Positions 6,363 to 44,100 of a stretch of DNA of 64,000 bases are shown here, piece after piece. The DNA lies in assembly GCA_048537945.1 (NCBI GenBank), contig CM108484.1:8995785-9059784 (forward strand), read 5' to 3'. The DNA comes from Mnemiopsis leidyi (lineage: Eukaryota). Numbering within the stretch: the stretch's first letter is position 1; each line of letters begins with the position of its first letter. The notes beneath the pieces were generated by a model that saw only the letters and a program-made list of their open reading frames with translations, was not told the origin of the DNA and searched no databases. A program made the position numbers and the translations under genes.

Positions 6363-6397
6363 ACTTTATATTACCCTTAAACGAACAGTATAGGTTA

Positions 6398-11045: not shown

Positions 11046-11057
11046 CCAATATATAAG
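11046..11057 (+). promoter_or_regulatory. CCAAT box followed immediately by TATATAAG, 36 bp upstream of the transposase-fragment ATG
   Basis: The sequence gggCCAATATATAAGGgagg was read directly. Confidence 0.5.
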
Positions 11058-11092
11058 GGAGGAACGATCCCGAAATATTATCGTCTTTGATA

Positions 11093-24680: not shown

Positions 24681-24974
24681 GTTCAAGGGATAATTTTGGG
24701 CTAGTTCGTCAAGTAGCATATTGATATGTGCACGCCGCGCAAGTATGTTCTTACGTGCGCAAAATAAAACTTTTGATTCATTTCATTGAGAATAACTAGC
24801 AACAGCTTTCGATTGCCGCCGTATCGTGGACGTTCCATCATATGGTTCCCCAAAGCCGTTACAACAAAAGCAAGGGTATTTAAGAAATCTCGATAAAAAT
24901 GTCGTTAAACAATAATTTACCCTACAATAATAAATTAAAACGGTGAATTGCTTGTTCCCATACGAATTTAAATT

Positions 24975-25226
24975 TTAAAATACGTCAATATCTGAAGGCA
25001 AAGTATGAGAACTCTTAACCTTCCCTAAAGTTAAAATAACGTCCATAAAATACTGATTGCTGTCACACAGGGAACTCAATGTCCTAGTCTGGGCAGTCAA
25101 AGCTGATACAATCCCGTTTAGGGTGGACATTATCTGTGAGGACGTCTTTTTGAGAGCTGGCCCGTGTGTCGTCAAGATGCTGCTGATCCACAGCATGTAA
25201 AAGTGTAGATGTCTTGATGCACCCAA
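24975..25226 (-). CDS. PWP2: PWP2 exon 16 (terminal), ...SRHLHFYMLWISSILTTHGPALKK...LSSLCDSNQYFMDVILTLGK...DIDVF*
   Basis: Acceptor ttcttcag|TTGGGT. The frame continues to a TAA stop. The translation matches the PWP2 C-terminal region (SRHLEFYLLWTHKLLMLHG...LSKLCSWNHYNMQYALAVSK). Confidence 0.8.
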   Translation of the reverse strand: MGASRHLHFYMLWISSILTTHGPALKKTSSQIMSTLNGIVSALTAQTRTLSSLCDSNQYFMDVILTLGKVKSSHTLPSDIDVF

Positions 25227-25341
25227 CTGAAGAAATTCAGTTGTGACGGCCACAACTGACTGTTTACTGTATTCATGAACTTCATAACGTGAAATAACAA
25301 AGAAAAGATAAATAAAACAAGAAAGCAATGCCAATATCAAC

Positions 25342-25499
25342 CTGATCGACGAGGAACTTGAGCAGAGAAGTGAGGTGATGGAGCGGTAAAGCTCCAACCA
25401 CGTAGTGTATCCTGTCCTCAGGGACTTGCTCCAATACCTCCACAACCAGATCACTTGTGTTAAGTCTCAGAGCTATAACCAGGGCTTTCAGATACGATT
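25342..25499 (-). CDS. PWP2: PWP2 exon 15, SYLKALVIALRLNTSDLVVEVLEQVPEDRIHYVVGALPLHHLTSLLKFLVDQ
   Basis: Acceptor ctttcag| and donor CAG|GTTGAT. Matches AILMAFRLNESKLVQEALEAVPRGEIEVVTSSLPELYVEKVLEFL. Confidence 0.8.
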
Positions 25500-26086
25500 C
25501 TGAAAGTTAAGAAATTATAGAAAAATAATCGTAATAAAAATAATGTCCAAAAAGTGCTGTTATAGGTATAAAATGAATCTTGAGTCAAAACAGGAAGCAG
25601 CAAGTATGCTTACAGAAGCACCGCAGTGCAAGGCAGACTGCAGTGGCAGCATTACAACAGCTACATCGTCCTCCAAATATGGAATAATTGGCCAATTTGA
25701 GCAGTATATATCGCCAATGTTTGCATTCTCCTCGCCGGGCTCAGTGGCGTGAGTCTGTAATCCAGTCACTTGGAGGCGCTAAAGGCTTGAATGTCTTGAG
25801 GTAGGGAGTTCTGAGCTGCGCTGTGCTATGTTGAGCTGGTGTCCGCGCTAAGACCGGTGCCAATATGGGTTCCTCTCGGTAGCTTGAGGGGTCCAGGTTG
25901 ATAGTGAGGAGCGTACCGGCCCAGGGACGAAAGTCAGCAGGCAAAAGCTCCCGTACTGGCCAGTAGTGGGATAGCACCGGTGAATAGGCACGTAGTTCAG
26001 CCCTACCAAAACAGGCAAACTTGTCCTTTTGCATTCATATTGTATAATTCTTTTTATCTAATATGAAGTGCACTTTTGTTCTGTAC

Positions 26087-26215
26087 CTGATGCGAGAGCA
26101 GCTCTCATTGTTAAAGGTGTAATGTCTGTGTCAAGGTCCACAGGATCGAATGTCAAGGTGTTGTCAAGGGAGTAGATAAGCAGTCCTTCTGTAGTTGCTG
26201 CACACCAACTTTGAC
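26087..26215 (-). CDS. PWP2: PWP2 exon 14, QSWCAATTEGLLIYSLDNTLTFDPVDLDTDITPLTMRAALAS
   Basis: Acceptor atcacag| and donor CAG|GTACAG. Matches RCWAATTTEGLLIYSLDTRVLFDPFELDTSVTP. Confidence 0.85.
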
Positions 26216-26651
26216 CTGTGATATCATGTCTTACTCTAGTATCGTTTATAGAACTTACACTTTGGCTTTCAGTATTATAAATTCATGTTTTGCAGTCATT
26301 TTCTTATCCATAAACCATCATTTTACCTTTCGATCCACGAATTTCGTAAGAAAACCTCCTATAACTACCAAAATGCAAGAAATAAATGGTTTCACTGCTT
26401 GAAGCTCCATTGCAGGCATAATCAGTAATATATTACAAGTGTGGTGCTGGGCGATTTATGAGAAGTTTCGGGGGAAATAAAGTGGGCACATAATATTCTG
26501 TAATATATCGGCGAGACATTCCATTTGATAATCTATAACGGATGATTAATAACAGACAGTGGGAAACCCAACACACACTTAATTCTCGTAACTGTAGGAG
26601 GAAACGGCTTGTAAATCCCCAGAAGCTAACTTCAATAAAACTCTCACAAAC

Positions 26652-26914
26652 CTGTCGGACAAAACTGGACAGAATGAACGTTGATCTGAGGAGCAACCCT
26701 TCGTTTGGAGAAATCTCCCTTCGATACCCCCGGAAGAGGGATCTCACTTCCATGCTCGTGTTCCTCCGTCTCCATCAGATCTAGCGGGCCCTGGTCTGTC
26801 ATGTTGTCACTCCGCAGAAACTGCAACATCGCATCGTACGACAGGTTGCGCGATACTTCGAACCGCTTGATTAGAACTGTTTGTTCAACGTTGTATATAC
26901 AAAAGTACTTCGAC
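26652..26914 (-). CDS. PWP2: PWP2 exon 13, RSKYFCIYNVEQTVLIKRFEVSRNLSYDAMLQFL...IPLPGVSKGD...VQFCPT
   Basis: Acceptor tctcccag| and donor ACAG|GTTTGT. Matches SKFVCIYHVREQILMKRFEISCNLSLDAMEEFL...IPLPGVRKGD...LRFSPTG. Confidence 0.85.
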
Positions 26915-27095
26915 CTGGGAGACGACTTCACTTTTTAATTATGCTAATCATATTTTGTAGCATAGTGAAGTATAAAAATTAACACAACAGCACTACCGAT
27001 TGAAACGAGACTGACAACCCAGCTTAACCCCGCTCTGCAATATCCCTAAAACTCTGCAATATCCCCAACGGCCAACACTACTGAACAAAACCAAC

Positions 27096-27298
27096 CTGCC
27101 GCCGGCGAGAATCACACTCCCGTCCGCACTATAGCTCAAACTGGTAAAACATCGGTTACGTTTCTGAGACTCTGCCGATATGAGGTCCTCCTTGGAGCGA
27201 CCTGCCCACAAGTCATTTCTCCCTTCTATACTCCCCACAGTGACTCCCAACTTCAAGTTGTAGAACGTTATCTCCGAGTTCAGGGTCGCAACTGCTAT
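27096..27298 (-). CDS. PWP2: PWP2 exon 12, IAVATLNSEITFYNL...GSIEGRNDLWAGRSKEDL...CFTSLSYSADGSVILAGG
   Basis: Acceptor cattctag| and donor GGCAG|GTTGGT. Matches LAVATLNSQITFWDP...GSIEGRHDLKTGRKELDK...FTALCYSADGHSILAGG. Confidence 0.85.
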
Positions 27299-28315
27299 CT
27301 AGAATGGGTTAATGATTAGTGGACTATGTCATTGCGAGATAAGTAATTCGTTTATGGACATGTTAGAACCGCAATTTTATACCTCAATATAATGATAATG
27401 CTTCCAAGTGCCAAAAGCTAAAAATGGATCATTTTCGTTACTTTTTTAGCACAACATAACTGTTATAAAAATGACCCAGTCAAATATAGCCTATAGTCTT
27501 TTTCAAGATGGAACTAACATTAAATATTGTTTATTGGAAAAAAAATTATTTATTTGTTAAGTTTTGCCCCACAATGGCCCTGTTCAGTATTGCCACTACT
27601 CAGCCTGCATTTTAGTGACTATTGCATCGTTCATGATAATTACATGGAAATTCTACTCTCTTAGATGTTGAGATGCAGTTAAGAAATCCCAAGAAATTTC
27701 TCATTCTCAAGGGGTTACACGAAAAGTTATACAGTTACCCGGCTTAAATTTTCTCAAGGTGTCATTTGTGATTTTCAAACAATTATGACTTTTAAGGAGA
27801 ATTAGTCAACAATCTACATGTCGTACCGACCACCAAGTTGGCGAAGATATAATGGATTCGCTCGGGCTACATCATACAACAACATGATCTATACCATCAC
27901 TGATAGATCTTTGACAGGGTGACGCATACAGCCGGGTTTCAGAATTATTGGCGCGTTTTGAAACCTTCTGTGTCTTGTATAATATTATAAGTTTCACGTG
28001 TCTTTAGTATTACAGTTCTAATTATTTACAATATGAAGCTGTCAACAATAAGGTTACAATAAAATTTACCCAGAAGATGACCAGGAAAGTTACTCAAAAG
28101 GTTACCACGATCTTAACCACAATCTTAACCAATTAGATCACTATAAGCAGTACAGTGAGGAACTGTTTAAGAGTCCAGATCGAAACAGTAGTAGTATGAG
28201 GTTTAAGAAAATTTACATTACTTATTCATCATGATGGTTACTGAAACTAATTATGGTAACAATTTAGAATCTGGTTACCACATACCAGTAAAATGACAGG
28301 ACCAGTAGAACTTAC

Positions 28316-28446
28316 CTGGGAGTTATCAGGACTAGCGACCACAGCAGTACAGTCGGAGGAGAGGGCCAGGGTGTCTGTAGTTCCCTTTCTTTCGAACGTG
28401 TCCCACACTCTAGTAGTTTTGTCCCAGGATGAGGATACCAACATTC
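28316..28446 (-). CDS. PWP2: PWP2 exon 11, MLVSSSWDKTTRVWDTFERKGTTDTLALSSDCTAVVASPDNSQ (WD40 repeat)
   Basis: Acceptor aattctag| and a perfect donor CAG|GTAAGT. Matches SVLASASWDKTVRLWDMFDSWRTKETLALTSDALAVTFRPDG. Confidence 0.85.
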
Positions 28447-28687
28447 CTAGAATTTTTGTAGATATTGTTTAGGGCTGGAGGAGCAGAACATTGGGCGACG
28501 TTTAACAATTTTCAAACTGATGACTTTTTAGTTCTCAACAACCCTGTAGTCCTTCACCCTACCAAGAAATCTAAGACCTACAATTGGGTGCAAACCGTAA
28601 AGAAGTTCTTTACTTTTCCGGATTTCAGTACAGTAGTTTACGAACAAGTCCCAGTAAGTATTTCAAAGGTAAAGATTTGTGAAATAC

Positions 28688-28775
28688 CTTCCATAAAGAC
28701 GAGGGAAGAGACAGGACCCTCATGTCCGGATAAGAGTTCCAGTAATCTTCCAGTCTGCATGTTCCATGTACAAAC
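28688..28775 (-). CDS. PWP2: PWP2 exon 10, VCTWNMQTGRLLELLSGHEGPVSSLVFME
   Basis: Acceptor ccttaacag| and donor GAAG|GTATTT. Matches IFVWSMQTGRLLDVLSGHEGPISGLCFNPM. Confidence 0.8.
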
Positions 28776-28980
28776 CTGTTAAGGTAAAAATGTAATGTGT
28801 GAAACTGACTCTAGCTGAGAAATGTGAACTGAGGTGTGAGTAATTTTTTATCAACGAAATGATATTGTTAGAACGATTGGGATTATAAAAACATTGATTC
28901 TTTTGAAACTATGAACGCGTCCAAATACCTCATAGGTGTTTTTCAGCACTACGACAGAATTCCAAAACGAAATATTTTAC

Positions 28981-29089
28981 CTGGAAGGTATCTGTAGTTC
29001 CTGCTGCTACGATTTCCCCACTAGTATCACATGCCACACAACTAAACTGTACTGGCGTTGGACAGGTCATTGTCCGGAAATTCCGGTAC
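28981..29089 (-). CDS. PWP2: PWP2 exon 9, RYRNFRTMTCPTPVQFSCVACDTSGEIVAAGTTDTFQ
   Basis: Acceptor aaccgcag| and donor CAG|GTAAAA. Matches YRNFRTFTSPRPTQFSCVAVDASGEIVSAGAQDSFE. Confidence 0.85.
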
Positions 29090-29257
29090 CTGCGGTTAAT
29101 TACGGAGTACGTGGCAAGAGGTAAACCGAAATCAGCGAACCGCTCAATATTGTAAATAATTGTTAATTTCCTAATGATATTTGATAAAGCTGTAATGACG
29201 GATTCATTGTCATTATCAGCTGTATTATCACAGTTAACAGTTATTTAAAAATGACAT

Positions 29258-29735
29258 TAACCTAACAACGACAGTAATCTAACAACGACAGTTTTCTAAC
29301 AACGACAGTTTTCTTACAACGACAGTTACCTAACAACGACAGTTACCTAACAACGACAGTTACCTAACAACGACAGTTACCTCACAAAAACATTTACCTC
29401 ACAACGACAGTTACCTAACAACGACATTTACCTAACAATGACAGTTACCTAACAACGACAGTGACCTCACAACAACAGTTACCTAACAACAACAGTTACC
29501 TAACAATGACAGTTACCTAACAACGACAGTTATCTAACAACGACAGTTACCTAACAACGACAGTTACCTAACAACAACAGTTACCTAACAACGACAGTTA
29601 CCTAACAACAACAGTTACCTCACAACAACAGTTACCTAACAACGACAATAATCTAACAACGACAGTTACCTAACAACGACAGTTACCTAACAGCAACAGT
29701 TACCTAACAACAACAGTTACCTAACAACGACACTA
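29258..29735. repeat. Minisatellite, 17-bp unit cgacagttacctaacaa in about 28 copies. It lies in the PWP2 intron immediately 3' of exon 8. On the gene strand each unit reads AGGTAACTGTCGTTGTT.
   Basis: Direct tandem periodicity. The array ends 17 bp from the exon 8 donor CAG|GTAACTGTCC, and that donor has the same sequence as the repeat unit. Confidence 0.9.
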
Positions 29736-29751
29736 CTACATGGACAGTTAC

Positions 29752-29917
29752 CTGTAAAGATCGAAAGCCCTGACAGTCCCGTCCAGACTAGCAGACAAGA
29801 CGACATTACCAGATTTCCTAAAGTACACATCAGACACTCCCGCTGTGTGCTCGTTAAAAGTGACGTAACAGAATCCTGTCTCGGTACTCCACACCTTCAC
29901 CTTGCCATCGTCTCCAC
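29752..29917 (-). CDS. PWP2: PWP2 exon 8, GDDGKVKVWSTETGFCYVTFNEHTAGVSDVYFRKSGNVVLSASLDGTVRAFDLY
   Basis: Acceptor ccctggcag| and donor TACAG|GTAACT. Matches GGDDGKVKVWNTLSGFCFVTFTEHSSGVTGVTF...SSMDGTVRAFDLHRY. Confidence 0.85.
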
Positions 29918-29944
29918 CTGCCAGGGAGTAGGGATAATCTGTCA

Positions 29945-32130
29945 GGTATAGAGAAGTTATACCGATACTGGTGATATAGAGAAGTTATACCGATACAGGT
30001 GATATAGAGAAGTTATACAGATACTGGTGATATAGAGAAGTTATACAGATACTGGTGATATAGAGAAGTTATACCGATACAGGTGATATAGAGAAGTTAC
30101 ACCGATACTGGTGATATAGAGAAGTTACACAGATACTGGTGATATAGAGAAGTTACATCGATACTGGTGATATAGGGAAGTTATACCGATACTAATAATA
30201 TAGAGAAGTTATACTGATACTGGTGATATAGAGAAGTTACACCGATACAGGTGATATAGAGAAGTTATACCGATACAGGTGATATAGAGAAGTTAAACTG
30301 ATACAGGTGATATAGAGAAGTTAAACTGATACAGGTGATATAGAGAAGTTATACAGATACAGGTGTTATAGAGAAGTTATACCGATACTGGTGATATAGA
30401 GAAGTTATACCGATACTAGTGATATAGAGAAGTTATACCGATACTGGTGATATAGAGAAGTTATACCGATACTGGTGATATAGAGAAGTTATACCGATAC
30501 AGGTGATATAGAGAAGTTATACCGATACTGGTGATATAGGGAAGTTATACCGATACAGGTGATATAGAGAAGTTATACCGATACAGGTGATATAGAGAAG
30601 TTAAACTGATACAGGTGATATAGAGAAGTTAAACTGATACAGGTGATATAGAGAAGTTATACAGATACAGGTGTTATAGAGAAGTTATACCGATACTGGT
30701 GATATAGAGAAGTTATACCGATACTAGTGATATAGAGAAGTTATACCGATACTGGTGATATAGAGAAGTTATACCGATACTGGTGATATAGAGAAGTTAT
30801 ACCGATACTGGTGATATAGAGAAGTTATACCGATACTGGTGATATAGAGAAGTTATACCGATACTGGTGTTATAGAGAAGTTATACAGATACTGGTGATA
30901 TAGAGAAGTTATACCGATACTGGTTATATAGAGAAGTTACACAGATACTGGTGATATAGAGAAGTTATACCGATACTGGTGATATAGAGAAGTTATACCG
31001 ATACTGGTGATATAGGGAAGTTACACAGATACTGGTGATATAGAGAAGTTACACCGATACAGGTGATATAGAGAAGTTATACCGATACTGGTGATATAGA
31101 GAAGTTATACCGATACTGGTGATATAGGGAAGTTATACCGATACTGGTGATATAGGGAAGTTATACCGATACAGGTGATATAGAGAAGTTATACCGATAC
31201 TGGTGATATAGAGAAGTTACACCGATACTGGTGATATAGGGAAGTTATACCGATACTAATAATATAGAGAAGTTATACCGATACTGGTTATATAGAGAAG
31301 TTACACAGATACTGGTGATATAGAGAAGTTATACCGATACTGGTGATATAGAGGAGTTACACAGATACTGGTGATATAGAGAAGTTACACCGATACAGGT
31401 GATATAGAGAAGTTATACCGATACTGGTGATATAGAGAAGTTATACCGATACTGGTGTTATAGAGAAGTTATACCGATACTGGTGATATAGAGAAGTTAT
31501 ACCGATACAGGTGATATAGAGAAGTTATACCGATACTGGTGATATAGAGAAGTTATACCGATACAGGTGATATAGAGAAGTTATACCGATACTGGTGATA
31601 TAGAGAAGTTACACCGATACTGGTGATATAGAGAAGTTACATCGATACTGGTGTTATAGAGAAGTTATACCGATACTGGTGATATAGAGAAGTTATACCG
31701 ATACTGGTGATATAGAGAAGTTATACCGATACAGGTGATATAGAGAAGTTACACTGATACTGGTGATATAGAGAAGTTACACCGATACTGGTGTTATAGA
31801 GAAGTTATACCGATACTGGTGATATAGAGAAGTTACACCGATACTGGTGATATAGAGAAGTTACACCGATACTGGTGATATAGAGAAGTTACACAGATAC
31901 TGGTGATATAGAGAAGTTATACCGATACAGGTGTTATAGAGAAGATATACTGATACTAGTGATATAGAGAAGTTATACCGATACTGGTGATATAGAGAAG
32001 TTATACCGATACTGGTGATATAGAGAAGATATACTGATACTGGTGATATAAAGAAGTTACACCGATACAGGCAATTAAAGCAGTTATACTGATACAGGCG
32101 ATACAGAGAAGATTTACTGATACTGGTGAC
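29945..32130. repeat. Minisatellite, 28-bp unit gatatagagaagttataccgatactggt in about 78 copies (~2.2 kb). It lies in the PWP2 intron immediately 5' of exon 8. On the gene strand each unit contains TTCTCTATATCACCAG.
   Basis: Direct tandem periodicity with A/G and C/T point variants. The array ends about 25 bp from the exon 8 acceptor. Confidence 0.9.
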
Positions 32131-32319
32131 TGAGGGCGCTGGACAGAGGATCTTTACTTACTTTTAGATAAATAAATAAATTTTCATCGTGAGTGACATG
32201 TGGGATGTCCAGCAAACCCGAATACAGAACAGTACAACAACTTGTACAACTAAAGAAAATGAAGTAAAAGTAACAACTATTATAACTAGAAAGTGAAGTA
32301 ACAGGAACAGCCCACCCAC

Positions 32320-32466
32320 CAGTAGCGATAGAGAGACTGTCTGGACTGTAGGAGACACAGGTCATGTCGTAACTGTGTCCTTGCTGCTTCAACACGTAAC
32401 TCTCACTCTTCCACTCCCACACGAGTAACTGGCCGTGTCCTCTACAGCCAAAACCTAGTAGGTCCC
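32320..32466 (-). CDS. PWP2: PWP2 exon 7, DLLGFGCRGHGQLLVWEWKSESYVLKQQGHSYDMTCVSYSPDSLSIATG
   Basis: Acceptor caatttcag| and donor ACTG|GTGGGT. Matches DWIAFGCSGLGQLLVWEWQSESYVLKQQGHFNSMVALAYSPDGQYIVTGG almost residue for residue. Confidence 0.9.
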
Positions 32467-34030
32467 CTGAAATTGTAGGGTAGTAACTAGTGTATGTATG
32501 TAGTATTTCAAATTCAGAAAATCTAGACCCCTGCACTCCTAAAATTCTATCGTTTTAACGATATCATCTAAATTTTAAATCTAAAGTATTAATCCACATC
32601 AAACGTGTGTAAATAACACATAAATTTGAGGATGTGAATGAAATGTAAATCTATCACAATGAACTTGAAATCTGTTACAGAATCAGCGCAGCATCAGATT
32701 TATACATCATCAATTTTCGAACCAGCACTCTAGAGTCTAAAGATATTAGTCTAAAGATATTACATTTACAATCTAAGTTTGAGGCGTGTGACTCCCAAAG
32801 TAATGTATGTAGTGAAGAGCCGATTTGAACCAAATGTTCCTATTACTCTCGTATTTAAACCGCAGGTGTAATGTAATTTGATCTCGACTACAGTAGTCGT
32901 GTGTCAAGTATTCACAAATTAGTATAAAGGTGGGATTTTGTTAAAGACCAGGGTTACGTCTCTTAACATAGAATACATTCCTAAGCTTAAGAGTATGATA
33001 TGGTTTGTCTGCATCACATTATAGAGCCTAGTATCCGTTTTGCTTCATGTAAATGAATGAAAGTTAAACATTTACACTGGACAATGTACAATTGATGTAC
33101 ACTATTGAAATGTATATCATTGATGTTGAAAACCCACTTATCCAAAGAAGCATTTTATGTGACTTCATAGTTAATATGATAACAATATAAATAAAGAAAC
33201 TTGAGGTTTAGTTCAGCAAACTTTCAATTTTTAACTTGACTTCAACTTGAATTATTTTGATATAAGATTATTCCATGGACTTATTAACCTGAGTCGCCTT
33301 ATACGGATATATATTTTGAGCTATAGGGCGTCGTATAAATAGGCACCTACTTTTTATATTATCATTAATATTGCATTGTCTTGTGTAGAAGGTGTATCAC
33401 AAGAGATAAAGATAGAACACATCACATTGTTTCATTACACATAACATCCAGTCGACACGTAATAACGACCACAGTAGAACGTTTTATATGACGAGTGTAC
33501 CTGCACATGTAACAGCTATGCAGTGACTCAATAAGATTGACGAAATTGGTGCACACTAAACCGCAGATATTACCAAGATCATTACACAGGAGTAGGGTAA
33601 TGTAATTTCTCGCAGGTCGATATTGCAACTATCCGCTAACAAGCTCTCTGTCTCATTATAACATGGCACAGAGATCTGATGTAACTTGAAGTGTGGCAAC
33701 TGGTACGTTCTCAATCCTGAGTTCCCTCATTTTTTTCTTCATTCCACTCCCCACATTCCACTACTTTGATCCCATACCCCAGTGCTTCTCTTCTTCATCT
33801 TTCTCTTATTTTCTGTCCTTAACCTCGTGTAGAGGTGTACTGTGTAGCCTAACCGCCTGATTAATTGCAGAGCGATCGGATCCACGCTTTTCAATCTGCC
33901 TCATGACGCTATATTTAGGCGTGTGTTCGAATATTCAGACTATAGCTGAGGTGCTATTCGTTAACAGAACCAGTATTGTTAACTTAACCGGTACTGTTAT
34001 ATGTGATGTGTATTGGTTTTGTCAACTAAC

Positions 34031-34128
34031 CTGATGGGCTGATAGACACAGCTGATATGTCTTTCTGTGAGATAGAAAGGGTGTGTATCTGATCAAATGT
34101 TGGTAGGTCGTAGAGTGTGAACTGGCCG
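34031..34128 (-). CDS. PWP2: PWP2 exon 6, GQFTLYDLPTFDQIHTLSISQKDISAVSISPS
   Basis: Acceptor aattttcag| and donor TCAG|GTTAGT. Matches GIFHLHELPEFNLIHSLSISDQSIASVAINSSG. Confidence 0.8.
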
Positions 34129-34267
34129 CTGAAAATTCCTTCTATTAATTCTGAACCCAAATATCACAACTTCTACTAATCACAACTTCTACTAATTTTT
34201 CAACTGAGTTCGAGTTTTAGATTACTTTTTACGAGATGAATTTAGGAATGTTCCTCAAAAAACCTAC

Positions 34268-34369
34268 TTGGAGAGGCCAACAACAAGAAGAGCGGACTGA
34301 AGAGCAGCACACGTGACATGAATACCTCCAGCTTGGTTGACGAAGTTCTTAGACCCTACATTCCACTTC
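34268..34369 (-). CDS. PWP2: PWP2 exon 5, (G)KWNVGSKNFVNQAGGIHVTCAALQSALLVVGLS
   Basis: Acceptor catttttcag|G and donor CCAA|GTAGGT. The phase is continuous with exon 4. Matches KYSRLAKYFFNKEGDFNNLTAAAFHKKSHLLVTGFAS. The vertebrate acidic insert is absent. Confidence 0.7.
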
Positions 34370-34894
34370 CTGAAAAATGTATGAAGTTTGTATATTGTTG
34401 GGATGTTGTCCAGGTTCATTTTCAAATTATTACTCTGCCACGATCTGGCGAAAGCGCTTATATACCAAATTTAAAAATTTTGATTCTTTCACTGAACTTT
34501 TCTATCAAGGGTCAACAAGTTCCCCTTTAAATCGTTGGAATGAATTTGGGACCCCAAAATTTGTTCTGTGCTGTACGCACTTGTTGAGAACTATCAATAA
34601 TCGGACAAAAGTGCTTCACGGACAGCGGTTTTTTCAGATTCTCTACTGCCAGAATATGCGGTAAACACCATTTTTCGGTTATGTCACTTCAACACTTTGT
34701 GATCACAAAATGAGGCACAAAAAACATCGAGGGACCATAAAGATGTCAGGATATGATCCTGGATACTAAGCCTTCAACCCATATGCTAGGTAAATATGAA
34801 AACTTTAACATTAAATCAAACAACACTGTTAGTAATCAGCACTTTTTTCATATCTTTACAGAGTAAAAATAACCTCAACTGTTAAAGTTCTCAC

Positions 34895-35124
34895 CCAGTC
34901 GTGGCACTGCGTTCCCATAGGAACATTCCACCATCAGCACTAACTGAAATAACTTCGCTTGCACCGCCCGGTCCAAACCACGCGCCGACCACACTGCGCT
35001 TGTGCCCAGTCAGGGTGACGGCCGTGAAGTCCTCTTCTGGCTCACGTGACAGAACTTTCACAGTCATGTCTACACTACCACACACTAGATACCGGGAACA
35101 TACACTCCAACTTATTGTAGAGAC
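34895..35124 (-). CDS. PWP2: PWP2 exon 4, VSTISWSVCSRYLVCGSVDMTVKVL...VTLTGHKRSVVGAWF...VSADGGMFLWERSATT
   Basis: Acceptor acacag| and donor ACTGG|GTGAGA. Matches TTCIDWTDDSRCFVVGSKDMSTWVF...LGGHKDAIVACFF...SQDGVLCMWQ. Confidence 0.8.
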
Positions 35125-35293
35125 CTGTGTATTCAGTTAGCTAGTTAATATTAGGAATCAGTTGGCAGTATAGTACTCCTTATTATAGTACTGCAAAATA
35201 TAGCACTAGGTATAAAGAGTACCAACATCATTTTAAACTGTAGTGCCAGGTAAGTACTTATAAGTACCGCCCTGCCTGCAAATAGTACTAAAC

Positions 35294-35470
35294 CTCGTCA
35301 TACTGTCCCGGGTAAGTTCTGACGAGGGTGAACGGAGCGAACTCCTTGCTGCTGCCGGGCGCGCGCCAAAGCTGCACGTGCTTTCCGTGTGACACTGCTA
35401 TGTGCGCACCGTCGGGGGAGTAGCTGATTGCTTGGACTGGTTTCTTGAAGTTGTGATGGGCTAGTAATAC
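35294..35470 (-). CDS. PWP2: PWP2 exon 3, VLLAHHNFKKPVQAISYSPDGAHIAVSHGKHVQLWRAPGSSKEFAPFTLVRTYPGQYDE
   Basis: Acceptor cttactacag| and donor GAG|GTTTAG. Matches VLHHFHFKGSVHSVSFSPDGRKFVVTKGNIAQMYHAPGKKREFNAFVLDKTYFGPYDE. Confidence 0.85.
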
Positions 35471-35741
35471 CTGTAGTAAGAGAGGGAAATTTTAGTTCGT
35501 GTATACTGTGCAACATCTGAGATTATTTAGGTAATAGATTCCATACGATTTGTTAAATTCCGTTTATTAAACTATTAAAGTTAAGGAAATTGGGACAAAC
35601 ATATTTATTTCGTGTGGAGCGGTTTTTAACTATTTAAGTCAACCAAAAAATCAGCGTAAATCAAAATAGGAAACATACAATTCCGAATCTGCATAAAGAG
35701 TGATGGGATTAGGTAACAATAACAACGGAAGCGAGTCTCAC

Positions 35742-35868
35742 CCTTTTTCTGACGTTAATGAGAATAGCTCTACCCTCCACATCCACACACAGGAGCATGT
35801 TTCCACAGGGCGATAAGGTGAAACATTCCATGTTCTTTCGGGTCTCGAACGGTAATGTTATCGTCTTA
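35742..35868 (-). CDS. PWP2: PWP2 exon 2, SKTITLPFETRKNMECFTLSPCGNMLLCVDVEGRAILINVRKR
   Basis: Acceptor gaacttcag| and donor AGG|GTGAGA. Matches SDTLPLATRYNVKCVGLSPDGRLAIIVDEGGDALLVSLVCRS. Confidence 0.8.
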
Positions 35869-36074
35869 CTGAAGTTCAAATATTTGGAATTCTTGGTTTT
35901 TGGAACGTTGAAATAAGCATGAGCGGAAAAGGGCGATCTTTGTTTGACAGTCGGAGAAACAGTGGTCTAGTTTTATATTGATTTCGTTAGTAGCATCTTT
36001 TAGTGAGTAACATCTAAATGAAAAATACAGGAGGTATTTTTAGTGGAAGTGGTCACAAATAGTTTGTATCACGC

Positions 36075-36150
36075 GATGGCATTGCTCGATAGTGATTATT
36101 GGTCAATCGCTGCCACATGATACAAAAAATATGTGACCCTTCCCAAAAAA
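36075..36150. repeat. Second copy (partial) of the 14694-14827 inverted-repeat element, inside PWP2 intron 1
   Basis: The shared core is gg(c/t)caatcgctg(c/t)cacatga(t/a)a(c)aaaaaat...gac(c/t)c(t)tcc(c)caa. Confidence 0.45.
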
Positions 36151-36194
36151 CCTTTCTCTCTTAAGATTCTAAAAATGTAAATTTCGTATCAGAC

Positions 36195-36328
36195 CTGCCT
36201 TTCATGTCGAAGATAGTGATTCTACTGCCGACAGGACTGAGTAGTTTGTTGCTGTCTGGGGTGAAGATGAGGTTTCCTCCTTTGTATACGGTGCCACACA
36301 AGTTACTGAACTCATAGCTAAACTTCAT
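36195..36328 (-). CDS. PWP2: PWP2 exon 1 with start codon, MKFSYEFSNLCGTVYKGGNLIFTPDSNKLLSPVGSRITIFDMKG
   Basis: The ATG is at 36328-36326 on the minus strand. Donor GGCAG|GTCTGA. Matches the PWP2 N-terminus MKFAYRFSNLLGTVYRRGNLNFTCDGNSVISPVGNRVTVFDLK. Confidence 0.85.
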
Positions 36329-37157
36329 CTCCTATTTGTGTGACTTTTTTCATTTTCATAGGAACACACTTATTTACTATTCAATCAGCACTGTCTACAT
36401 TGACGGAAAGAAAAAAGGACGTTTAATTTGCTTATTTAAAAGCCTAACAAATTGAACTTCGAGAATTAAATTTAAACAGTTTTCAAAGATAATACTTTTG
36501 ACATTGTGATCGTGTTGAATGTTATCAATTAGACAAGTTGGCCGTTGGGATCGATCTTTGTTGAAATCACTTTGCGATGTTACACAAGGAGCAATTTCTA
36601 AGAGACTATGTCATCATCACTTAGCAATCTTATAGCAGCAAGTCCATTTTAAGTTGAGCAATTGTGGCAAAAGATTGCGCAAATAAAATAATGTTTGTCA
36701 AAAGACAAACCCACTAGAATACTGTTGACGCACAATAAACTATATTGCGCAACACAAGTTATGACTTATGTGTAATAATCTCTCTCAAGGAAATGAATGT
36801 AAAAGAAGTACCGAAATAGTGAAGAAGACATAATGAAAATATAATGACAATTGGAAATCGGTAGGTATAAAATAGTTCCGATAATCTAAATGAAGCTTCA
36901 AGATAATCCAATATTTCGTTACTTTCATCTTTATTAATATCATAAAGTTTATGATTGAAAAGGTAATATCTGATTATTTCTGTACAAATTAGACATAATA
37001 ATTTATTGCGGCCTTGAATATAAAGCTAGGTTAAAAATAAAATATCTTAATATAAACATAGACATAAATTAACTTGTTAAAGTATGAAAATTGTTTGTAA
37101 TTCGTAATCAAAATAGAAACTCGTGAAAAGTCAAATCCGCGTAATCCGACTAAATAT

Positions 37158-37751
37158 CTATCTATCGGCAGGTTTATCAGCCTCACTCTGCTTCTTATTC
37201 TCCTGAACAATTTTAAACCGAACTTCGCTGGCGTGGTCCTCCAGGATACTGTTCACCAGGCCCCGGTGTTTTTCCATGATTGTCCTGCAGCCCGCATGTA
37301 CCTTCCCTCCCTTGAACTTCTGTCTTCTTCTCTTACTGTCTCTCTGTAACTTTACCAGCTCCAGTTTCGACTTGGCTCGAGCTTCCTCTTTCTGTTTCAT
37401 CTTTTCTTCCGGGTCAAATTCTTGGAGATCTGCCAAGTTAAGCTGGTTAGGCAGCTCGCTGCTGTTTTCCAAAAGAAAAGTGTACAGTTCTAGCTTAGCG
37501 GCTGATGGGAGGAGGTTAAAAGCAGCGGTGAAATCCCCAGAAACATGGTTGTTCTCGTACAACTCCGATATTTTGTTTTCTATTTTAGGATCAAGAGATG
37601 GAGGGGACGGTTTTTTTCGTTTTTGAGACGGGGAATAGTTTAGAAACTTTTCTAGATCGTACCCGATGTCGGTGACAAAGTTCTCGATTGTCCGCTGTAG
37701 CTCCTCTATTTTCTCGTACAATTTCACTTCATTGATACTCAGTTCTGACAT
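37158..37751 (-). CDS. Hypothetical 197-aa protein with a K/E-rich coiled coil and a basic C-terminal patch (KRRRQKFKGGKVHAGCRTIMEKHRGLVNSILEDH); single exon; not recognised
   Basis: Clean ORF from ATG to stop with no internal frame problems. Lysine-rich composition fits a nuclear protein. No family assignment is possible without a search. Confidence 0.4.
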   Translation of the reverse strand: MSELSINEVKLYEKIEELQRTIENFVTDIGYDLEKFLNYSPSQKRKKPSPPSLDPKIENKISELYENNHVSGDFTAAFNLLPSAAKLELYTFLLENSSELPNQLNLADLQEFDPEEKMKQKEEARAKSKLELVKLQRDSKRRRQKFKGGKVHAGCRTIMEKHRGLVNSILEDHASEVRFKIVQENKKQSEADKPADR

Positions 37752-39242
37752 TGCCCTGAATATTCGTGCTATCTCAAAAATTATTGCAAATCATAAAATC
37801 GACTGTTTAAAATTTACGGCCATCTTTCTTCCTTAAATCAAACTTTGTAATTGTGTAGTATACTGTAATTAGCAGCTATTGCACTTATTTTGAATTTGCC
37901 GCAATCTCATAAAACGATAATTTTAACGATTTTGTAACATGCCCGAATTGTCAAGCGGTACTTGACAATCTTAGCTCCGAAAAGTAAAATTTTACAGCGA
38001 TCATTAGGTCATTTTAAGATTCTTAAACATCATTTCTGGGGAGATTTATCTCGTCAAATTTTCGCAAGGAACACAATATATACACATATATTCACACCGT
38101 GTGTTAAATCATACTGCCTTTTGCTATGTGACATCGTGTAGTGAATGTGGCCGACAAAAGATAGAAGTAGGAAATTGCTAACTTCGCTTCGGACACAATG
38201 AAGCTCGTACCAAACCTTACTACAGTTATTTTATCTTTTATTGTTATTTACATTCGTGTACCACGGTCTAGATAACAGTTTTCTGAACGCAGAATGTATA
38301 CAATGGAGTATGTGTACTTGAGACGTGACACAGGACTGTGTAGAACTGCAGTGTTCTGATGTGGGAGAGTTCATTATTAACTTATTGGAACAAAATGAAC
38401 ATCACATGATGAATATAGTAGGAAGTATTTCAGCAATTTTACAGACGTAGCCACGTATTTTTCTACAATTTACAACTTAAAAAGGGCTTATTAGGACGGA
38501 AACGAATTCAAGTTGGCACCCTAACTCTTCATCTTTATTCCAATCTTCAATAAATTAATCTAGCAAAATGATACAAACTATTCTCGATCAGGCATTGTTT
38601 TATATATAAATTATTAAGCATAAAGTTTTAAAGTTGAAAATATGCTTTACATTATGTTTTTAACGTGTGTGTCGGTGCAAAAACGTGGTTCTTACCTCTC
38701 AACCTACGTGTTTTATGATATCAAAGTTATTATCCTAAAATATCTTAAATATCCTAAAATATTCAAGACTTTTATTTGCATTTTTATTTGCATTTTCCGT
38801 TCGTTCAGCATAATCAGGTTTTATAAATGTAAATCTATTCAATTATGGAAATTGAGGTTTAAGTAAAAAATTAATTAGAAAAAAACGTCAAAGATCATCT
38901 TAAAACAATTGATCAATTTATTTTTCATTGTATTTTACGCGTAACTGCAGCAAAGTTTAATACATTAAATAGCCCTTGAAACCTCTCTTACACCAATAAT
39001 TTTATGTGAGATCGACTTATCGGTTAACGATTATTGAAAAAATCACTGAGTATTCTCAATCATATGTTCTACGCCAGTTTCAACGCATATGTCATGCAAA
39101 GGGCTATCAAACCTATACAATATACAATATTCAAGTTCATTAAATCAAACCAAAAGAATAATTTTAATTTTCTTTAAGGGTTTCTGAACAATTGTGGTCA
39201 AACAGAACTTGAAATTTAGAAGTATCTATAGCAAGGTAAAAA

Positions 39243-40688
39243 TCAGAGAGTTTTCGATTTGTCTTTCGTAGGATCGATTTTCAGATTATTGTTTGCAGAT
39301 TCTTTTTTTCTGTTGTTTCTACTTCCAAATCTAGCTCGGTTGATAAGGGATCTAGTCTTGTCGATAAAAGAGAAATGTTTAGTAGGAGTTGGTTCGTTCG
39401 AGGTGTCCGCTCGGTCTCCCTCTGTCTTAATAGCCCAGCTAGGTTTTCGAACACCAACCGAATCAAAAGATCCAGTGCTACCTTGGTGAATTTCAAGAGC
39501 TTTGACGGAGTCCAAAGTAGTGCAGGATCGTCTGGTGGACTTGGTGGAAAACTGACGGGCGGGTTTTCTCGGCGGAACAGGATTTCTGGAGACGTGAGGA
39601 GCAGGGAGTTTAGGCGGCAGGATATGCGGACTGGGAGTCACAGTGGACAGGGGCAGTCTGACTTGGTAGGGCATGTAAAGCGGGTCTCCGTTCAAGGACT
39701 GGTGTCTCCTGACCGTTGGTTTTGTGGGTTTCTTGCGGTGCCTAAAGGAGCTAGAGCCACCTAAAGGGCGGAGTTTTGGGAAGGTGTTTTCAGAGGTTAG
39801 CTTTGAGGAGAGATTGAGATCAGTTAGGGCTTGTAAAGCAAGGGCTTTACAGAGAGCGGTGTTTTGGTCGTGACTCTCACCTGGGGCCACCTCTTCAAGG
39901 AGGTTTTCCTGATTTAAGCGAGTTCCATCTTCGACAACCATGCTGTCCCCTTTATTAATTGGAACGACTGTAGGACACTCGGAGGATATTTCCGACAGAG
40001 GTTCGTAGTAGGCTTGAGAACTTTGTGGGAAGACGTGAGACACAGTGTCGTATGATATAGGAGTGCTTAAAGTTGAGCTGTTTATTAGACTCATTCTGTT
40101 TCCCAAATGTCGACTGGACATAGATGCTCTTGAAATGGGCATTTGAGAGGGTGCTTCTGAAGTTATAGGTGAGTTATCTTGAGGAGTTTGGGAAAGAGAC
40201 CAGGATCGAAGTAACGAGCTTGGATTTGAAAAAGGAGTCGAAGGAAAGGAAGCATATGTTGCCATTGTGAACCTACTGTCAGTGTACTCGGATAGACTCT
40301 GCAGAAGGTTTACTTTACTCTCGTCTGTAACTGTAGAGGGTCCTCCTATTTCATGAATTAAAGTGGACGGAGTTTCAGGGTACGCTGCTCCCGTTACTCC
40401 ACCCAAACTCTCCAACAGCTGTAGAGAAGCCCGAGCGTACTGAGCCATCGCTGCCTGGAACTCATTCTGGGGCTCCATGTTGTCAAGTGTCTGAAAAGCA
40501 AGTCTGAGGTCGCCCCGACAGGAGGTCATCTGAGTGAGCGAGGCTGAGGCGATGTTATCCATCGTGCTTACAACATCACTCAAATGATGCGACTCCCATT
40601 CCGGCGAGCCCGGACTCCCACCACCGGAAACGATGTGCTGCAGCGCATCCCGCAGATTCAATTTCATGTCATACCGACATCTAATCAA
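39243..40688 (-). CDS. Hypothetical 481-aa S/P/T-rich, predicted disordered protein. It could be the large terminal exon of a bigger gene. Not recognised.
   Basis: A 1.4-kb ORF in an AT-rich genome is unlikely by chance. The N-terminal 100 aa (ALQHIVSGGGSPGSPEWESHH...AMAQYARASLQLLESLGG) are less biased in composition. A possible acceptor lies right at the start (ttgattag|ATG). Confidence 0.35.
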   Translation of the reverse strand: MIRCRYDMKLNLRDALQHIVSGGGSPGSPEWESHHLSDVVSTMDNIASASLTQMTSCRGDLRLAFQTLDNMEPQNEFQAAMAQYARASLQLLESLGGVTGAAYPETPSTLIHEIGGPSTVTDESKVNLLQSLSEYTDSRFTMATYASFPSTPFSNPSSLLRSWSLSQTPQDNSPITSEAPSQMPISRASMSSRHLGNRMSLINSSTLSTPISYDTVSHVFPQSSQAYYEPLSEISSECPTVVPINKGDSMVVEDGTRLNQENLLEEVAPGESHDQNTALCKALALQALTDLNLSSKLTSENTFPKLRPLGGSSSFRHRKKPTKPTVRRHQSLNGDPLYMPYQVRLPLSTVTPSPHILPPKLPAPHVSRNPVPPRKPARQFSTKSTRRSCTTLDSVKALEIHQGSTGSFDSVGVRKPSWAIKTEGDRADTSNEPTPTKHFSFIDKTRSLINRARFGSRNNRKKESANNNLKIDPTKDKSKTL

Positions 40689-41380
40689 AGGCTAAAACGC
40701 ACGTATGTCAATTCGAAGTTGGGAGATAAGTTAAAAATATGCACTGTCGTCAGAAAAAAAGATGTAATGTAGCCAGTACATGGGCTGGGGCGAACTGTGT
40801 GGCTTGAAGTCGAGATGTCATAGGCTTCTCTAATTGGACGAAACTAATTGCATAAAATTATCAGCCTAATTTTTAGGTGCAAATACTTGCTGAAATTAAT
40901 TAACGAATTCCAAAGTTCCTTTTGAAGTTTTATGCGTAAAGTTGGTTGATTAATATTCATGGGCTCATACCAATTTTTCCCGGAATTTTAACGCTCGTGA
41001 AGGCTTTATTTATCGTAAAACAAAGTTTATCACAAGAAAACGTAAATTGCAAACAAAGAAACCAGTGACCAGCCAGCAATAATTACAAAGGGAATATTTG
41101 CAACTATCATAAATCAGCCTAACAAAAAATACTCATAGCGCCATAACGTCAAGAGTGCTACTGCTTAAATGTCAACATTTGCCCTTCAGCACAAGAATTC
41201 ATATAAAAACGTCAGCATTTATAAAACGTCCGGTTAACGTCAGGTGTCTAAAATAGACTTGTAAAAAATTGCCGAAACCAGCGGCAAACAAAATAAAGAT
41301 ATATCTTGTCATCAACTCAAAGGAAAGAGAAAATTTGAAAAATTTCCCCCCTAGATATCCAAATTCCAGACTGCAGTCGG

Positions 41381-43954: not shown

Positions 43955-44100
43955 ACAGTGAAACCTCTATTTACACGGTAACTAGAGGCACGGTAAAAAG
44001 ATGTTTTACTGTATCGAGAAATAATTGGGGAAATGGAGAAGCCCGGTGAATCGAGGGACACGGTAAATAGAGGCACGGTAAATAGAGGTCTAACAGTACT
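43955..44100. repeat. Rearranged fragment of the Tc1-type MITE family (CCCGGTGAATCGAGGG, CACGGTAAATAGAGG motifs) inside Rab3 intron 4
   Basis: Shares terminal and subterminal motifs with the 19543-20152 element. Confidence 0.45.

What the first reader, a model, noticed from the sequence alone, without database searches (positions are those of the whole stretch)
29258..32130. PWP2 exon 8 is sandwiched between two different minisatellites whose repeat units look like splice sites
Downstream of the exon, in gene orientation, about 28 tandem 17-bp units each read AGGTAACTGTCGTTGTT, which is a strong 5' splice-site mimic (AG|GTAACT). The genuine donor CAG|GTAACTGTCC is simply the first unit. Upstream of the exon, about 78 tandem 28-bp units each contain TTCTCTATATCACCAG, a pyrimidine tract followed by CAG that mimics a 3' splice site. 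The array ends about 25 bp before the true acceptor. Together they make a 2.7-kb intronic field of decoy splice signals around a 166-nt WD40-coding exon of an essential ribosome-biogenesis gene. The arrays may have arisen by local duplication of the real splice sites. They could influence exon-8 recognition through decoy or enhancer-like effects, or create length-polymorphic alleles.
Basis: partly seen in the sequence, partly recalled or inferred. Interest (0 to 1): 0.7.

Follow-up and report, generated by a model that had tools for sequence, protein, structure and literature searches.

The report
Splice-site-like minisatellites flanking PWP2 exon 8
Two real tandem-repeat arrays flank a constitutive exon of the comb jelly (Mnemiopsis leidyi) PWP2 gene; the downstream one grew out of a duplication of the exon's own 5' splice junction, the upstream one resembles a 3' splice site only at chance level, and both look like neutral intron bloat rather than a regulatory device.

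Summary
On the minus strand, PWP2 coding exon 8 (29917-29752, 166 nt) has a 28-bp x 78 array upstream (29947-32129) and a 17-bp x 29 array downstream (29237-29751). The window is Mnemiopsis leidyi: a 16-exon model translates exactly to GenBank KAL5256599.1.

- **17-mer array.** It starts at intron base +1, and the real donor CAG|GTAACTGTC is its first unit. All 28 units sit in perfect register; 22 begin GT and 27 end AG. A close relative has 5-6 decayed units at the same place. Bolinopsis microptera has an exact 12-nt copy of the exon 8/intron 8 junction 23 nt downstream. This matches the 'mirage' minisatellites described so far only in amphioxus.
- **28-mer array.** It is specific to M. leidyi and shows no similarity to the real acceptor or the flanks. 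Its acceptor-like motif scores 4.8 bits against 10.7 for the real site, and about 14% of random 28-mers would carry one as good.

Any decoy use gives a stop codon within 1-3 codons, and the deposited protein sequence uses the canonical junctions. RNA data and within-species length polymorphism could not be tested. Best reading: neutral, lineage-specific intron expansion. Moderate-low interest.

The parts
32320..32466 (-). PWP2 coding exon 7 (147 nt), donor CTG|GTGGGT
   Evidence: Spliced model that translates exactly to P0121
32130..32319 (-). Unique 5' part of intron 7 (190 nt). Together with the 29-nt 3' spacer it corresponds to the whole 211-213-nt intron 7 of the closest relative.
   Evidence: Global alignment to intron 7 of L001 and L002
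29947..32129 (-). 28-bp minisatellite, 78 copies. Consensus in gene orientation is TCACCAGTATCGGTATAACTTCTCTATA. Each unit has a TATAAC branch-point-like motif, a pyrimidine-rich stretch, and then CAG (49 units) or CTG (20 units). The edge units at the 5' end are degenerate.
   Evidence: Acceptor-like score 4.8 bits.
29918..29946 (-). 29-nt unique 3' end of intron 7 carrying the real branch-point-like CTGAC and the acceptor CCCTACTCCCTGGCAG|G. At 10.7 bits it is the second strongest acceptor in the gene.
29752..29917 (-). PWP2 coding exon 8 (166 nt, WD40 repeat). Its length is not a multiple of 3, so skipping it would shift the reading frame.
29721..29751 (-). First 31 nt of intron 8, GTAACTGTCCATGTAGTAGTGTCGTTGTTAG. 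It holds the functional donor (CAG|GTAACT, 8.6 bits) and equals two degenerate 17-mer units.
   Evidence: (0 of 1000 shuffles) and the alignment to relatives
29237..29720 (-). 17-bp minisatellite of 28 units in perfect register, consensus GTAACTGTCGTTGTTAG. Unit junctions read TTAG|GTAACT. There are 22 donor mimics of 6.3 bits or similar, and the main variants are CpG transitions (GTCGTT to GTTGTT or GTCATT).
29090..29236 (-). Unique 3' part of intron 8 with the acceptor TTAACCGCAG|G
28981..29089 (-). PWP2 coding exon 9 (109 nt)

Best explanation
These are two independent, lineage-specific intronic minisatellites that inflated two ancestrally short introns (about 210 and 230 nt) of Mnemiopsis leidyi PWP2. 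They have no dedicated function.

**17-mer array.** It is a junction-seeded ('mirage'-type) array.
- An old tandem duplication of the exon 8/intron 8 boundary (CTTTACAG|GTAACTGTC) existed in the common ancestor of the lobate ctenophores compared here, or recurred in them.
- In the Mnemiopsis lineage its intronic part was amplified to about 29 copies. The mechanism is inferred to be replication slippage or unequal exchange.
- Every unit therefore inherits a donor (AG|GTAACT) by descent, not by selection.

**28-mer array.** It arose later, only in M. leidyi, 29 nt upstream of the acceptor, from sequence unrelated to that acceptor. Its pyrimidine-CAG motif is incidental.

**Why splicing stays correct (inferred, not shown).**
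- The real acceptor is about 6 bits stronger than the decoys.
- The real donor is the first one and has the better -3 base.
- Because each 17-mer unit runs from GT to AG, any internal splice removes whole units and regenerates the same junction.
- Any mRNA that keeps array sequence hits a stop codon within 1-3 codons and should be removed by nonsense-mediated decay.
For: **Identity and gene model.** The window is M. leidyi PWP2, and the 16-exon model translates exactly to P0121.

**Arrays are real.**

**17-mer descends from the junction.**
- The array starts at intron +1, and the first 31 nt align to 2 units (0 of 1000 shuffles).
- 28 units lie in perfect register; 22 begin GT and 27 end AG.
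- Species X (L001/L002, about 94% aa identity, collinear) has a 4-6-unit decayed array at the same site. It includes CTTTGTAAG|GTAACTGTC, a copy of its own junction CTTTATAG|GTAATTGTC.
- B. microptera has an exact 12-nt duplicate, CTTTACAGGTTT, 23 nt downstream of the junction.
- A more distant ctenophore has none.

**28-mer is unrelated to the acceptor.**
- It is absent from species X, B. microptera and L003.
- The M. leidyi flanks (190 + 29 nt) align along the whole 211-213-nt intron of the relative.
- The unit shows no similarity to the flanks or the acceptor.
- Acceptor-like sites of 4 bits or more occur 4.9 times per kb in non-array introns, so about 14% of random 28-mers would carry one. 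Decoys score 4.8 bits and the real site 10.7.

**Minisatellites are common in these introns.**
- B. microptera PWP2 has a 9-mer x 11 array in intron 1 and a 16-mer x 21 array in intron 6.
- Introns differ by kilobases between the two haplotigs of species X.

**Canonical junctions.** The deposited 837-aa protein, which my canonical-junction model reproduces exactly, is held under GenBank KAL5256599.1 and UniParc UPI0004EA565F.
Against: - No RNA data were available, so use of the decoys, or an effect on splicing efficiency, is not excluded.
- The splice-site scores come from generic matrices recalled from memory plus only 15 sites of this gene.
- Two large arrays lying within 215 bp of each other is somewhat unlikely for 3 large arrays scattered over 64 kb (rough P about 0.04). 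This hints at a local instability hotspot that the neutral model does not explain.
- A second large array in the window (15886-17685) also has a TTAG|GTAG unit junction and is weakly similar to the 17-mer (9-17 of 1000 shuffles).
- In M. leidyi itself, similarity of the unit to the exonic side of the junction is not significant.
Confidence: 0.72

Rival explanations
1. The arrays are functional splicing elements. Multiple U1 snRNP binding sites downstream and pseudo-acceptors upstream would tune definition of exon 8 as enhancers or decoys, or protect the pre-mRNA. They would be maintained by selection.
For: - There are 22 decoy donors at about 6.3 bits, close to the median of real donors in the gene (6.8), and a 12-fold enrichment of donor-like sites in the array.
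- 45 decoy acceptors score near the median real acceptor and sit about 18 nt downstream of a TATAAC motif.
- The 17-mer motif has persisted at this junction in two species.
Against: - Copy number differs about 5-fold between close relatives. The 28-mer is absent from every other species examined, and B. microptera and L003 manage with introns of about 155-230 nt.
- The relative's units are decayed, and some have lost the GT.
- Variants are typical CpG decay.
- Every decoy use gives a premature stop codon (reading frame).
- No RNA evidence was available.
Confidence: 0.1
2. One or both arrays are copies of a dispersed satellite or the internal repeats of a transposable element that landed in these introns. 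In that case any splice-site resemblance is coincidental.
For: - The 28-mer appears as a clean insertion relative to the other species and has no local progenitor.
- The 17-mer shares TGTTAGGTA/AACTGTT with the 30-mer array at 15886-17685 (9-17 of 1000 shuffles).
Against: - There is no non-repeat element sequence, terminal repeat or extra DNA at the array edges. The flanks add up to the ancestral intron length.
- Neither unit occurs elsewhere in the 64-kb window.
- The 17-mer starts exactly at the donor and has an orthologous proto-array.
- An unbiased test for a shared core among 14 tandem-repeat consensus sequences is not significant.
- Metagenome scans found nothing, but they are uninformative because this genome is not in that collection.
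Confidence: 0.12
3. The arrays, or their copy numbers, are artefacts of assembly.
For: Long perfect-register arrays are hard to assemble. No second M. leidyi assembly could be retrieved for this region.
Against: - The arrays contain structured variant units (26 distinct 28-mers, repeated multi-unit variant patterns, degenerate edge units), as real minisatellites do.
- An independent assembly of a relative carries the 17-mer proto-array.
Confidence: 0.04

Closest known systems
'Mirage' minisatellites of amphioxus (Adh3, globin, troponin C and PGBD5 genes). Source: Canestro et al. 2002 NAR 30:2871, as cited in PMC3087553 and PMC3902484.
   Same: - Tandem minisatellite-like duplications that copy an exon/intron boundary and its splice signals.
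- Unit sizes of 10-160 bp.
- Copy number differs between haplotypes or species.
- The mRNA is reported to be normally spliced despite the AG/GT-bearing copies.
- Both 5' and 3' boundaries can be affected.
   Different: - Described only in cephalochordates; this case is a ctenophore.
- In M. leidyi the amplified unit is essentially the intronic half of the junction. Only AG, plus a weak and non-significant resemblance, comes from the exon side. The relatives do show copies that span the boundary.
- At about 29 copies it is larger than the cited globin examples (3-6 copies).
- The 28-mer array is not a mirage at all.
Recursive splice sites (ratcheting points) of long Drosophila and vertebrate introns. 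Consensus is a pyrimidine tract followed by CAG|GTAAGT (own knowledge: Burnette 2005; Duff 2015; Sibley 2015).
   Same: Each 17-mer junction, GTCGTTGTTAG|GTAACT, places an acceptor-like and a donor-like site back to back, so splicing to it would regenerate a 5' splice site.
   Different: - Known recursive sites are single, conserved sites in introns of tens of kilobases. Here there are 28 copies in a 662-nt intron.
- They are neither conserved nor needed.
- No RNA evidence exists for them.
Ordinary intronic VNTRs and minisatellites, some associated with splicing variation in human (PMC10078293)
   Same: Intronic location, unit length of 17-28 bp, variant-repeat structure, degenerate edges and lineage-specific copy number.
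   Different: The 17-mer's first unit is the functional splice donor itself, which is not a general property of VNTRs.
Intron gain by tandem duplication of an AGGT-containing segment (own knowledge: Rogers 1989; Hellsten 2011). PMC3087553 proposes the same route for mirages.
   Same: A tandem duplication creates extra AG|GT junctions that the spliceosome could use.
   Different: No new intron or exon has been created here. The duplication lies within an existing intron and only lengthens it.

Membership tests
Mirage minisatellite (amphioxus type) | Head-to-tail tandem repeat of minisatellite unit size inside a gene | tested here: met
   17-mer x 29.2 copies at 89% matches. 28 units lie in perfect register.
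Mirage minisatellite (amphioxus type) | The repeat unit is a copy of an exon/intron boundary, including the splice signal | tested here: met
   The array starts at intron +1, and the real donor AG|GTAACTGTC is the first unit (0 of 1000 shuffles). 19 units carry the exact AGGTAACT.
Mirage minisatellite (amphioxus type) | Copies include exonic sequence, so the unit spans the boundary | tested here: inconclusive
   In M. leidyi the last 30 nt of the exon are not significantly similar to the unit (358 of 1000 shuffles). Relatives do show it: B. microptera has an exact CTTTACAG|GTTT duplicate, and species X has CTTTGTAAG|GTAACTGTC against its junction CTTTATAG|GTAATTGTC.
Mirage minisatellite (amphioxus type) | Duplicated splice signals do not disturb normal mRNA splicing | not testable with these tools
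   The only evidence is indirect. The deposited 837-aa protein (GenBank and UniParc accessions) uses the canonical junctions. No RNA-seq was available.
Mirage minisatellite (amphioxus type) | Length instability or polymorphism | tested here: inconclusive
   Between species the copy number is about 29, then 4-6, then 2 junction copies, then 0. Within M. leidyi it was not testable because no second assembly could be retrieved.
Mirage minisatellite (applied to the 28-mer array) | The unit is a copy of the neighbouring acceptor boundary | tested here: not met
   There is no similarity to the acceptor region plus the start of the exon (798 of 1000 shuffles score at least as high) or to the 5' flank. 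There is none to the relative's intron either (260 of 500).
Recursive splice site (ratcheting point) | Juxtaposed 3' and 5' splice-site consensus (pyrimidine tract, AG|GTRAGT) | tested here: met
   Unit junctions read GTCGTTGTTAG|GTAACT. The acceptor half scores 4.3-4.5 bits and the donor half about 6.3 bits.
Recursive splice site (ratcheting point) | Located in a very long intron and conserved across species | tested here: not met
   The intron is 662 nt long. The units are decayed or absent in relatives.
Recursive splice site (ratcheting point) | Splicing intermediates detectable in RNA | not testable with these tools
   No RNA data.
Transposon-borne or dispersed satellite | Copies at other loci, and element sequence or terminal repeats at the edges | tested here: inconclusive
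   There are no other copies in the 64-kb window. The flanks account for the whole ancestral intron. The rest of the genome could not be searched, and the metagenome scans were empty.

The most novel reading that the evidence does not exclude
Minisatellites seeded on splice junctions ('mirages') would not be peculiar to amphioxus. They would also arise in ctenophores, and the exon 8/intron 8 junction of PWP2 would have been duplicated repeatedly, or persistently, across at least three lobate species. That would point to a duplication mechanism linked to splice junctions, or to a tolerance filter. Arrays whose unit runs exactly from GT to AG are 'splicing-neutral', because any internal splice deletes whole units and restores the junction. 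Such arrays could therefore expand freely and act as a general route of intron growth, and potentially intron gain, in early-branching animals.
Probability: 0.15. Interest if true: 0.6.

Novelty: new member of a known kind. Interest (0 to 1): 0.3.

Why it matters
- **Taxonomic reach.** If the reading holds, boundary-duplicating minisatellites extend from cephalochordates to a ctenophore.
- **A dated example of intron growth.** Here a 5' splice junction duplication becomes a 500-bp array, and an intron grows 11-fold (about 213 to 2402 nt) by minisatellite expansion alone.
- **A natural test of splice-site choice.** The spliceosome faces 22 near-identical donors and about 45 plausible acceptors around an exon that cannot be skipped in an essential ribosome-biogenesis gene.
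- **Limits.** It does not reveal a new mechanism or a new class of element, and nothing here indicates a function.

Tried and rejected
1. **Amphioxus origin.** I suspected this from the 'mirage' literature, but the protein search shows Mnemiopsis leidyi.
2. **A core motif shared by the window's tandem repeats.** I considered AGGTA, AACTG or GGTAAC as a recombination or Myb-like core. An unbiased k-mer sharing test on 14 consensus sequences is not significant (P 0.1-0.9). AGGTA in 3 arrays is within chance.
3. **Hairpin-driven slippage.** Both arrays fold no better than shuffles as single-stranded DNA (z = +0.7 and +1.4).
4. **A local progenitor of the 28-mer.** I looked in the acceptor region, the flanks and the relative's intron and found none.
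5. **The 28-mer as a donor mimic through CG|GTATAA.** By hand calculation with the matrix it scores about 0 bits, and no array GT site reaches 4 bits.
6. **Other M. leidyi assemblies or haplotypes, to test polymorphism.** P0121 is not on record. One 6.6-kb Logan contig stops 4 kb short of the arrays. An exon 11 ORF look-up failed.
7. **Scans of JGI metagenome contigs for both units.** There were 0 hits, which is uninformative.
8. **Gene context of the other two AG|GT arrays.** Pfam scans of nearby ORFs gave only a weak GIT_SHD hit and a FLYWCH hit, so the context is unresolved.
9. **The primary 'mirage' paper (PMC117041).** It is not held in the library, so it is cited second-hand.
Full report
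**Observation.** Tandem Repeats Finder reports a 17-bp array of 29.2 copies at 29237-29732 (89% matches) and a 28-bp array of 78.0 copies at 29947-32129 (92% matches, no indels). With up to 3 mismatches the two units match 27 and 75 times, only inside these arrays, against 0.17 and 0.00 matches expected from shuffles. Between the arrays, on the minus strand, lies a 166-nt open segment encoding GDDGKVKVWSTETGFCYVTFNEHTAGVSDVYFRKSGNVVLSASLDGTVRAFDLY. It matches 'periodic tryptophan protein 2' and WD40 families.

**Organism and gene model.**
- A 761-aa draft of the protein matches 'hypothetical protein ACHWQZ_G011746 [Mnemiopsis leidyi]' (P0121, 837 aa) at 99%.
- A spliced model with 16 coding exons and GT-AG introns, built from the window, translates to P0121 exactly.
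- The exon in question is coding exon 8 (29917-29752). Intron 7 is 32319-29918 (2402 nt, the longest in the gene, 91% array). Intron 8 is 29751-29090 (662 nt, 75% array).
- That exact 837-aa sequence is held under GenBank KAL5256599.1 and UniParc UPI0004EA565F. Since my canonical-junction model reproduces it, the deposited annotation uses the canonical 7-8-9 junctions. This is the only splicing evidence I have, and it is indirect.

**Anatomy of the 17-mer array.**
- In gene orientation, intron 8 begins GTAACTGTCCATGTAGTAGTGTCGTTGTTAG. It is followed by 28 units in perfect 17-nt register with consensus GTAACTGTCGTTGTTAG.
- The first 31 nt align to two units with score 38, against 13.2 +/- 3.0 for shuffles (0 of 1000). 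The array therefore begins at the first base of the intron, and the functional donor is its first unit.
- 22 of the 28 units start with GT and 27 end with AG, so most unit boundaries read AG|GT.
- With a generic 5' splice-site matrix (values recalled from memory, so approximate), the real donor CAG|GTAACT scores 8.6 bits and the commonest decoy TAG|GTAACT about 6.3 bits. The 15 real donors of the gene range from -0.3 to 12.7 with a median of 6.8.
- The intron holds 26 GT sites of 4 bits or more, essentially all in the 496-nt array. The 6142 nt of non-array intron in the gene hold 27.
- The main unit variants are GTCGTT to GTTGTT or GTCATT, which are CpG transitions.

**Anatomy of the 28-mer array.**
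- 77 units lie in register with no indels. The consensus is TCACCAGTATCGGTATAACTTCTCTATA, there are 26 distinct variants, and variation concentrates at five positions.
- 49 units have CACCAG and 20 have CACCTG.
- The acceptor-like motif CTCTATATCACCAG|T scores 4.8 bits on a generic 3' matrix, near the median of the real acceptors (4.5). The real exon 8 acceptor, CTACTCCCTGGCAG|G, scores 10.7 and is the second best in the gene.
- Acceptor-like AG sites of 4 bits or more occur 30 times in 6142 nt of non-array intron. A random 28-bp unit would therefore carry one about 14% of the time.
- The array ends 29 nt before the exon.

**Comparison with relatives.** Four orthologous loci were retrieved.
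- *Species X* is an unidentified lobate ctenophore, represented by two haplotigs of ENA assembly ERZ25070731 (L001 and L002). It is collinear with window 24879-42410 and about 94% identical in PWP2 exons. It is not B. microptera.
  - Its intron 7 is 211-213 nt with no 28-mer. The 190-nt and 29-nt flanks of the M. leidyi array align along its whole length.
  - Its intron 8 is about 230 nt and carries 4-6 decayed 17-mer units.
  - Those units begin with CTTTGTAAG|GTAACTGTC, a copy of its own junction CTTTATAG|GTAATTGTC that includes exonic bases.
- *Bolinopsis microptera* (L007, GCA_026151205.1; protein XP_063675016.1) has short introns 7 and 8 without arrays.
  - Its exon 8/intron 8 junction CTTTACAG|GTTT is duplicated exactly, 23 nt downstream.
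  - The RefSeq protein requires the upstream copy, because using the second copy would add 23 nt and shift the frame.
- *A more distant ctenophore* (L003) has introns of about 155 nt and neither array.

The junction duplication is therefore old or recurrent. The 17-mer array arose in the lineage shared by M. leidyi and species X and then expanded about 5-fold in M. leidyi. The 28-mer is specific to M. leidyi.

**Origin of the 28-mer.** The unit has no significant similarity to the real acceptor region (798 of 1000 shuffles score at least as high) or to the 5' flank. It has none to the relative's intron either (260 of 500). No transposon-like sequence sits at its edges. The claim that it arose by duplicating the real acceptor is not supported, and its source remains unknown.

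**Consequences of decoy use (from the reading frame).**
- Exon 7 ends in phase 1. Splicing to a decoy CACCAG| would read G-TA TCG GTA TAA, a stop after three codons.
- Exon 8 ends in phase 2. Any retained array sequence reads AG-G TAA, a stop after one codon.
- Exon 8 is 166 nt, so skipping it shifts the frame.
- All aberrant products are thus predicted targets of nonsense-mediated decay (inference).
- Because 17-mer units run from GT to AG, an internal splice between any unit donor and any later unit acceptor removes whole units and restores the same junction (inference). The array is therefore largely self-correcting.

**Is this a general phenomenon?**
- Two other arrays in the window also have AG|GT unit junctions. 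One is a 30-mer x 60 at 15886-17685 (TTAG|GTAGTT on the minus strand). The other is a 30-mer x 6.4 at 3406-3596 (CAG|GTAGTA on the plus strand).
- The first is weakly similar to the 17-mer (9-17 of 1000 shuffles).
- An unbiased k-mer sharing test over 14 tandem-repeat consensus sequences shows no more sharing than shuffled sets, and I could not establish gene context for either array.
- Minisatellites without any splice-site likeness are common in the short introns of these genes. One example is (AATTCTTTA)x11, 16 nt into intron 1 of B. microptera PWP2. Intron lengths also differ by kilobases between haplotigs.
- With introns of about 200 nt, any array is necessarily close to a splice site. 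This largely explains the 'sandwich'.

**Comparison with known systems.** The 17-mer array fits the 'mirage' minisatellites of amphioxus. [quoted passage not shown] They have been proposed as a route to intron gain (PMC3087553 and PMC3902484, both citing Canestro et al. 2002). I found no report of them outside cephalochordates, and no paper linking Mnemiopsis with minisatellites in this sense. The unit junctions also resemble recursive splice sites, but the intron is short and the sites are not conserved. The 28-mer is an ordinary intronic minisatellite.

**Verdict.**
- Descent of the donor array from the real donor is supported.
- Descent of the acceptor array from the real acceptor is rejected.
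- A function in splicing is untested and unlikely, given the rapid turnover between species.
- The most likely account is neutral, lineage-specific intron expansion that is tolerated for three inferred reasons: a strong real acceptor, self-correcting unit architecture, and nonsense-mediated decay.
- It counts as a new member of a known kind (a mirage-like array in a ctenophore). Interest is about 0.3.

Noticed in passing
window 25734-26030 (+): A full-length metazoan SRP (7SL) RNA gene (Rfam RF00017, 226 bits, E 1e-60) lies inside PWP2 intron 14 (26086-25500), antisense to PWP2. The region is about 84% conserved in species X.
   Followed up: partly
window 15886-17685: A 30-bp x 60 minisatellite at 97% matches. 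On the minus strand each unit is GTAGTTGTAAGCTGCTACACAAACTGTTAG, so every junction is TTAG|GTAGTT. It is weakly similar to the 17-mer (9-17 of 1000 shuffles). No coding exon or Pfam hit lies nearby, so it is unknown whether it is intronic.
   Followed up: partly
window 3406-3596: A 30-bp x 6.4 array, GTAGTAATAATGTCAGGTTAACTGACTCAG, with CAG|GTAGTA junctions on the plus strand. It lies between a 706-aa dynamin-like ORF (4248-6365, minus strand) and a weak GIT-SHD ORF (2290-2499, minus strand). The splice-like motif is therefore probably on the non-transcribed strand.
   Followed up: partly
L007 9061-9418 (Bolinopsis microptera PWP2 intron 6): A 16-bp x 21 minisatellite (TAACAGTGTTAGTTAG) ends a few bases before the acceptor of exon 7. 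Its units contain GTTAGT and TAACAG, which resemble local donor and branch/acceptor motifs. It is a different intron from the M. leidyi arrays.
   Followed up: partly
L007 9937-9971 (Bolinopsis microptera): An exact 12-nt duplicate of the exon 8/intron 8 junction, CTTTACAGGTTT, lies 23 nt downstream. This gives two identical candidate donors. Only the upstream one keeps the frame of the RefSeq protein.
   Followed up: yes
window 10133-10787 and 12039-13294, with an ORF at 11057-11644 (+): Two blocks of a 175-bp tandem repeat flank an ORF with a FLYWCH zinc-finger domain (Pfam E 1e-7). This may be a transposon-derived unit.
   Followed up: no
window 54150-54373: An (AGG)74 microsatellite of 224 bp.
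   Followed up: no
window 20094-20145 and 44044-44088: The same short tandem motif, CCCGGTAAATAGAGG, occurs at two distant places in the window. This suggests a dispersed repeat family.
   Followed up: no
L001 versus L002 (species X haplotigs), PWP2 intron 9: The two haplotigs of one assembly differ by about 1.9 kb in intron 9 (about 200 nt against about 2100 nt). They also differ in the 17-mer proto-array, which shows large intron-length heterozygosity.
   Followed up: partly
window 29237-29751 and 29947-32129: The dominant unit variants in both arrays are transitions at the single CpG of the unit (GTCGTT to GTTGTT or GTCATT; TCGGT to TCAGT). This is consistent with methylation-driven decay inside a gene body.
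   Followed up: no
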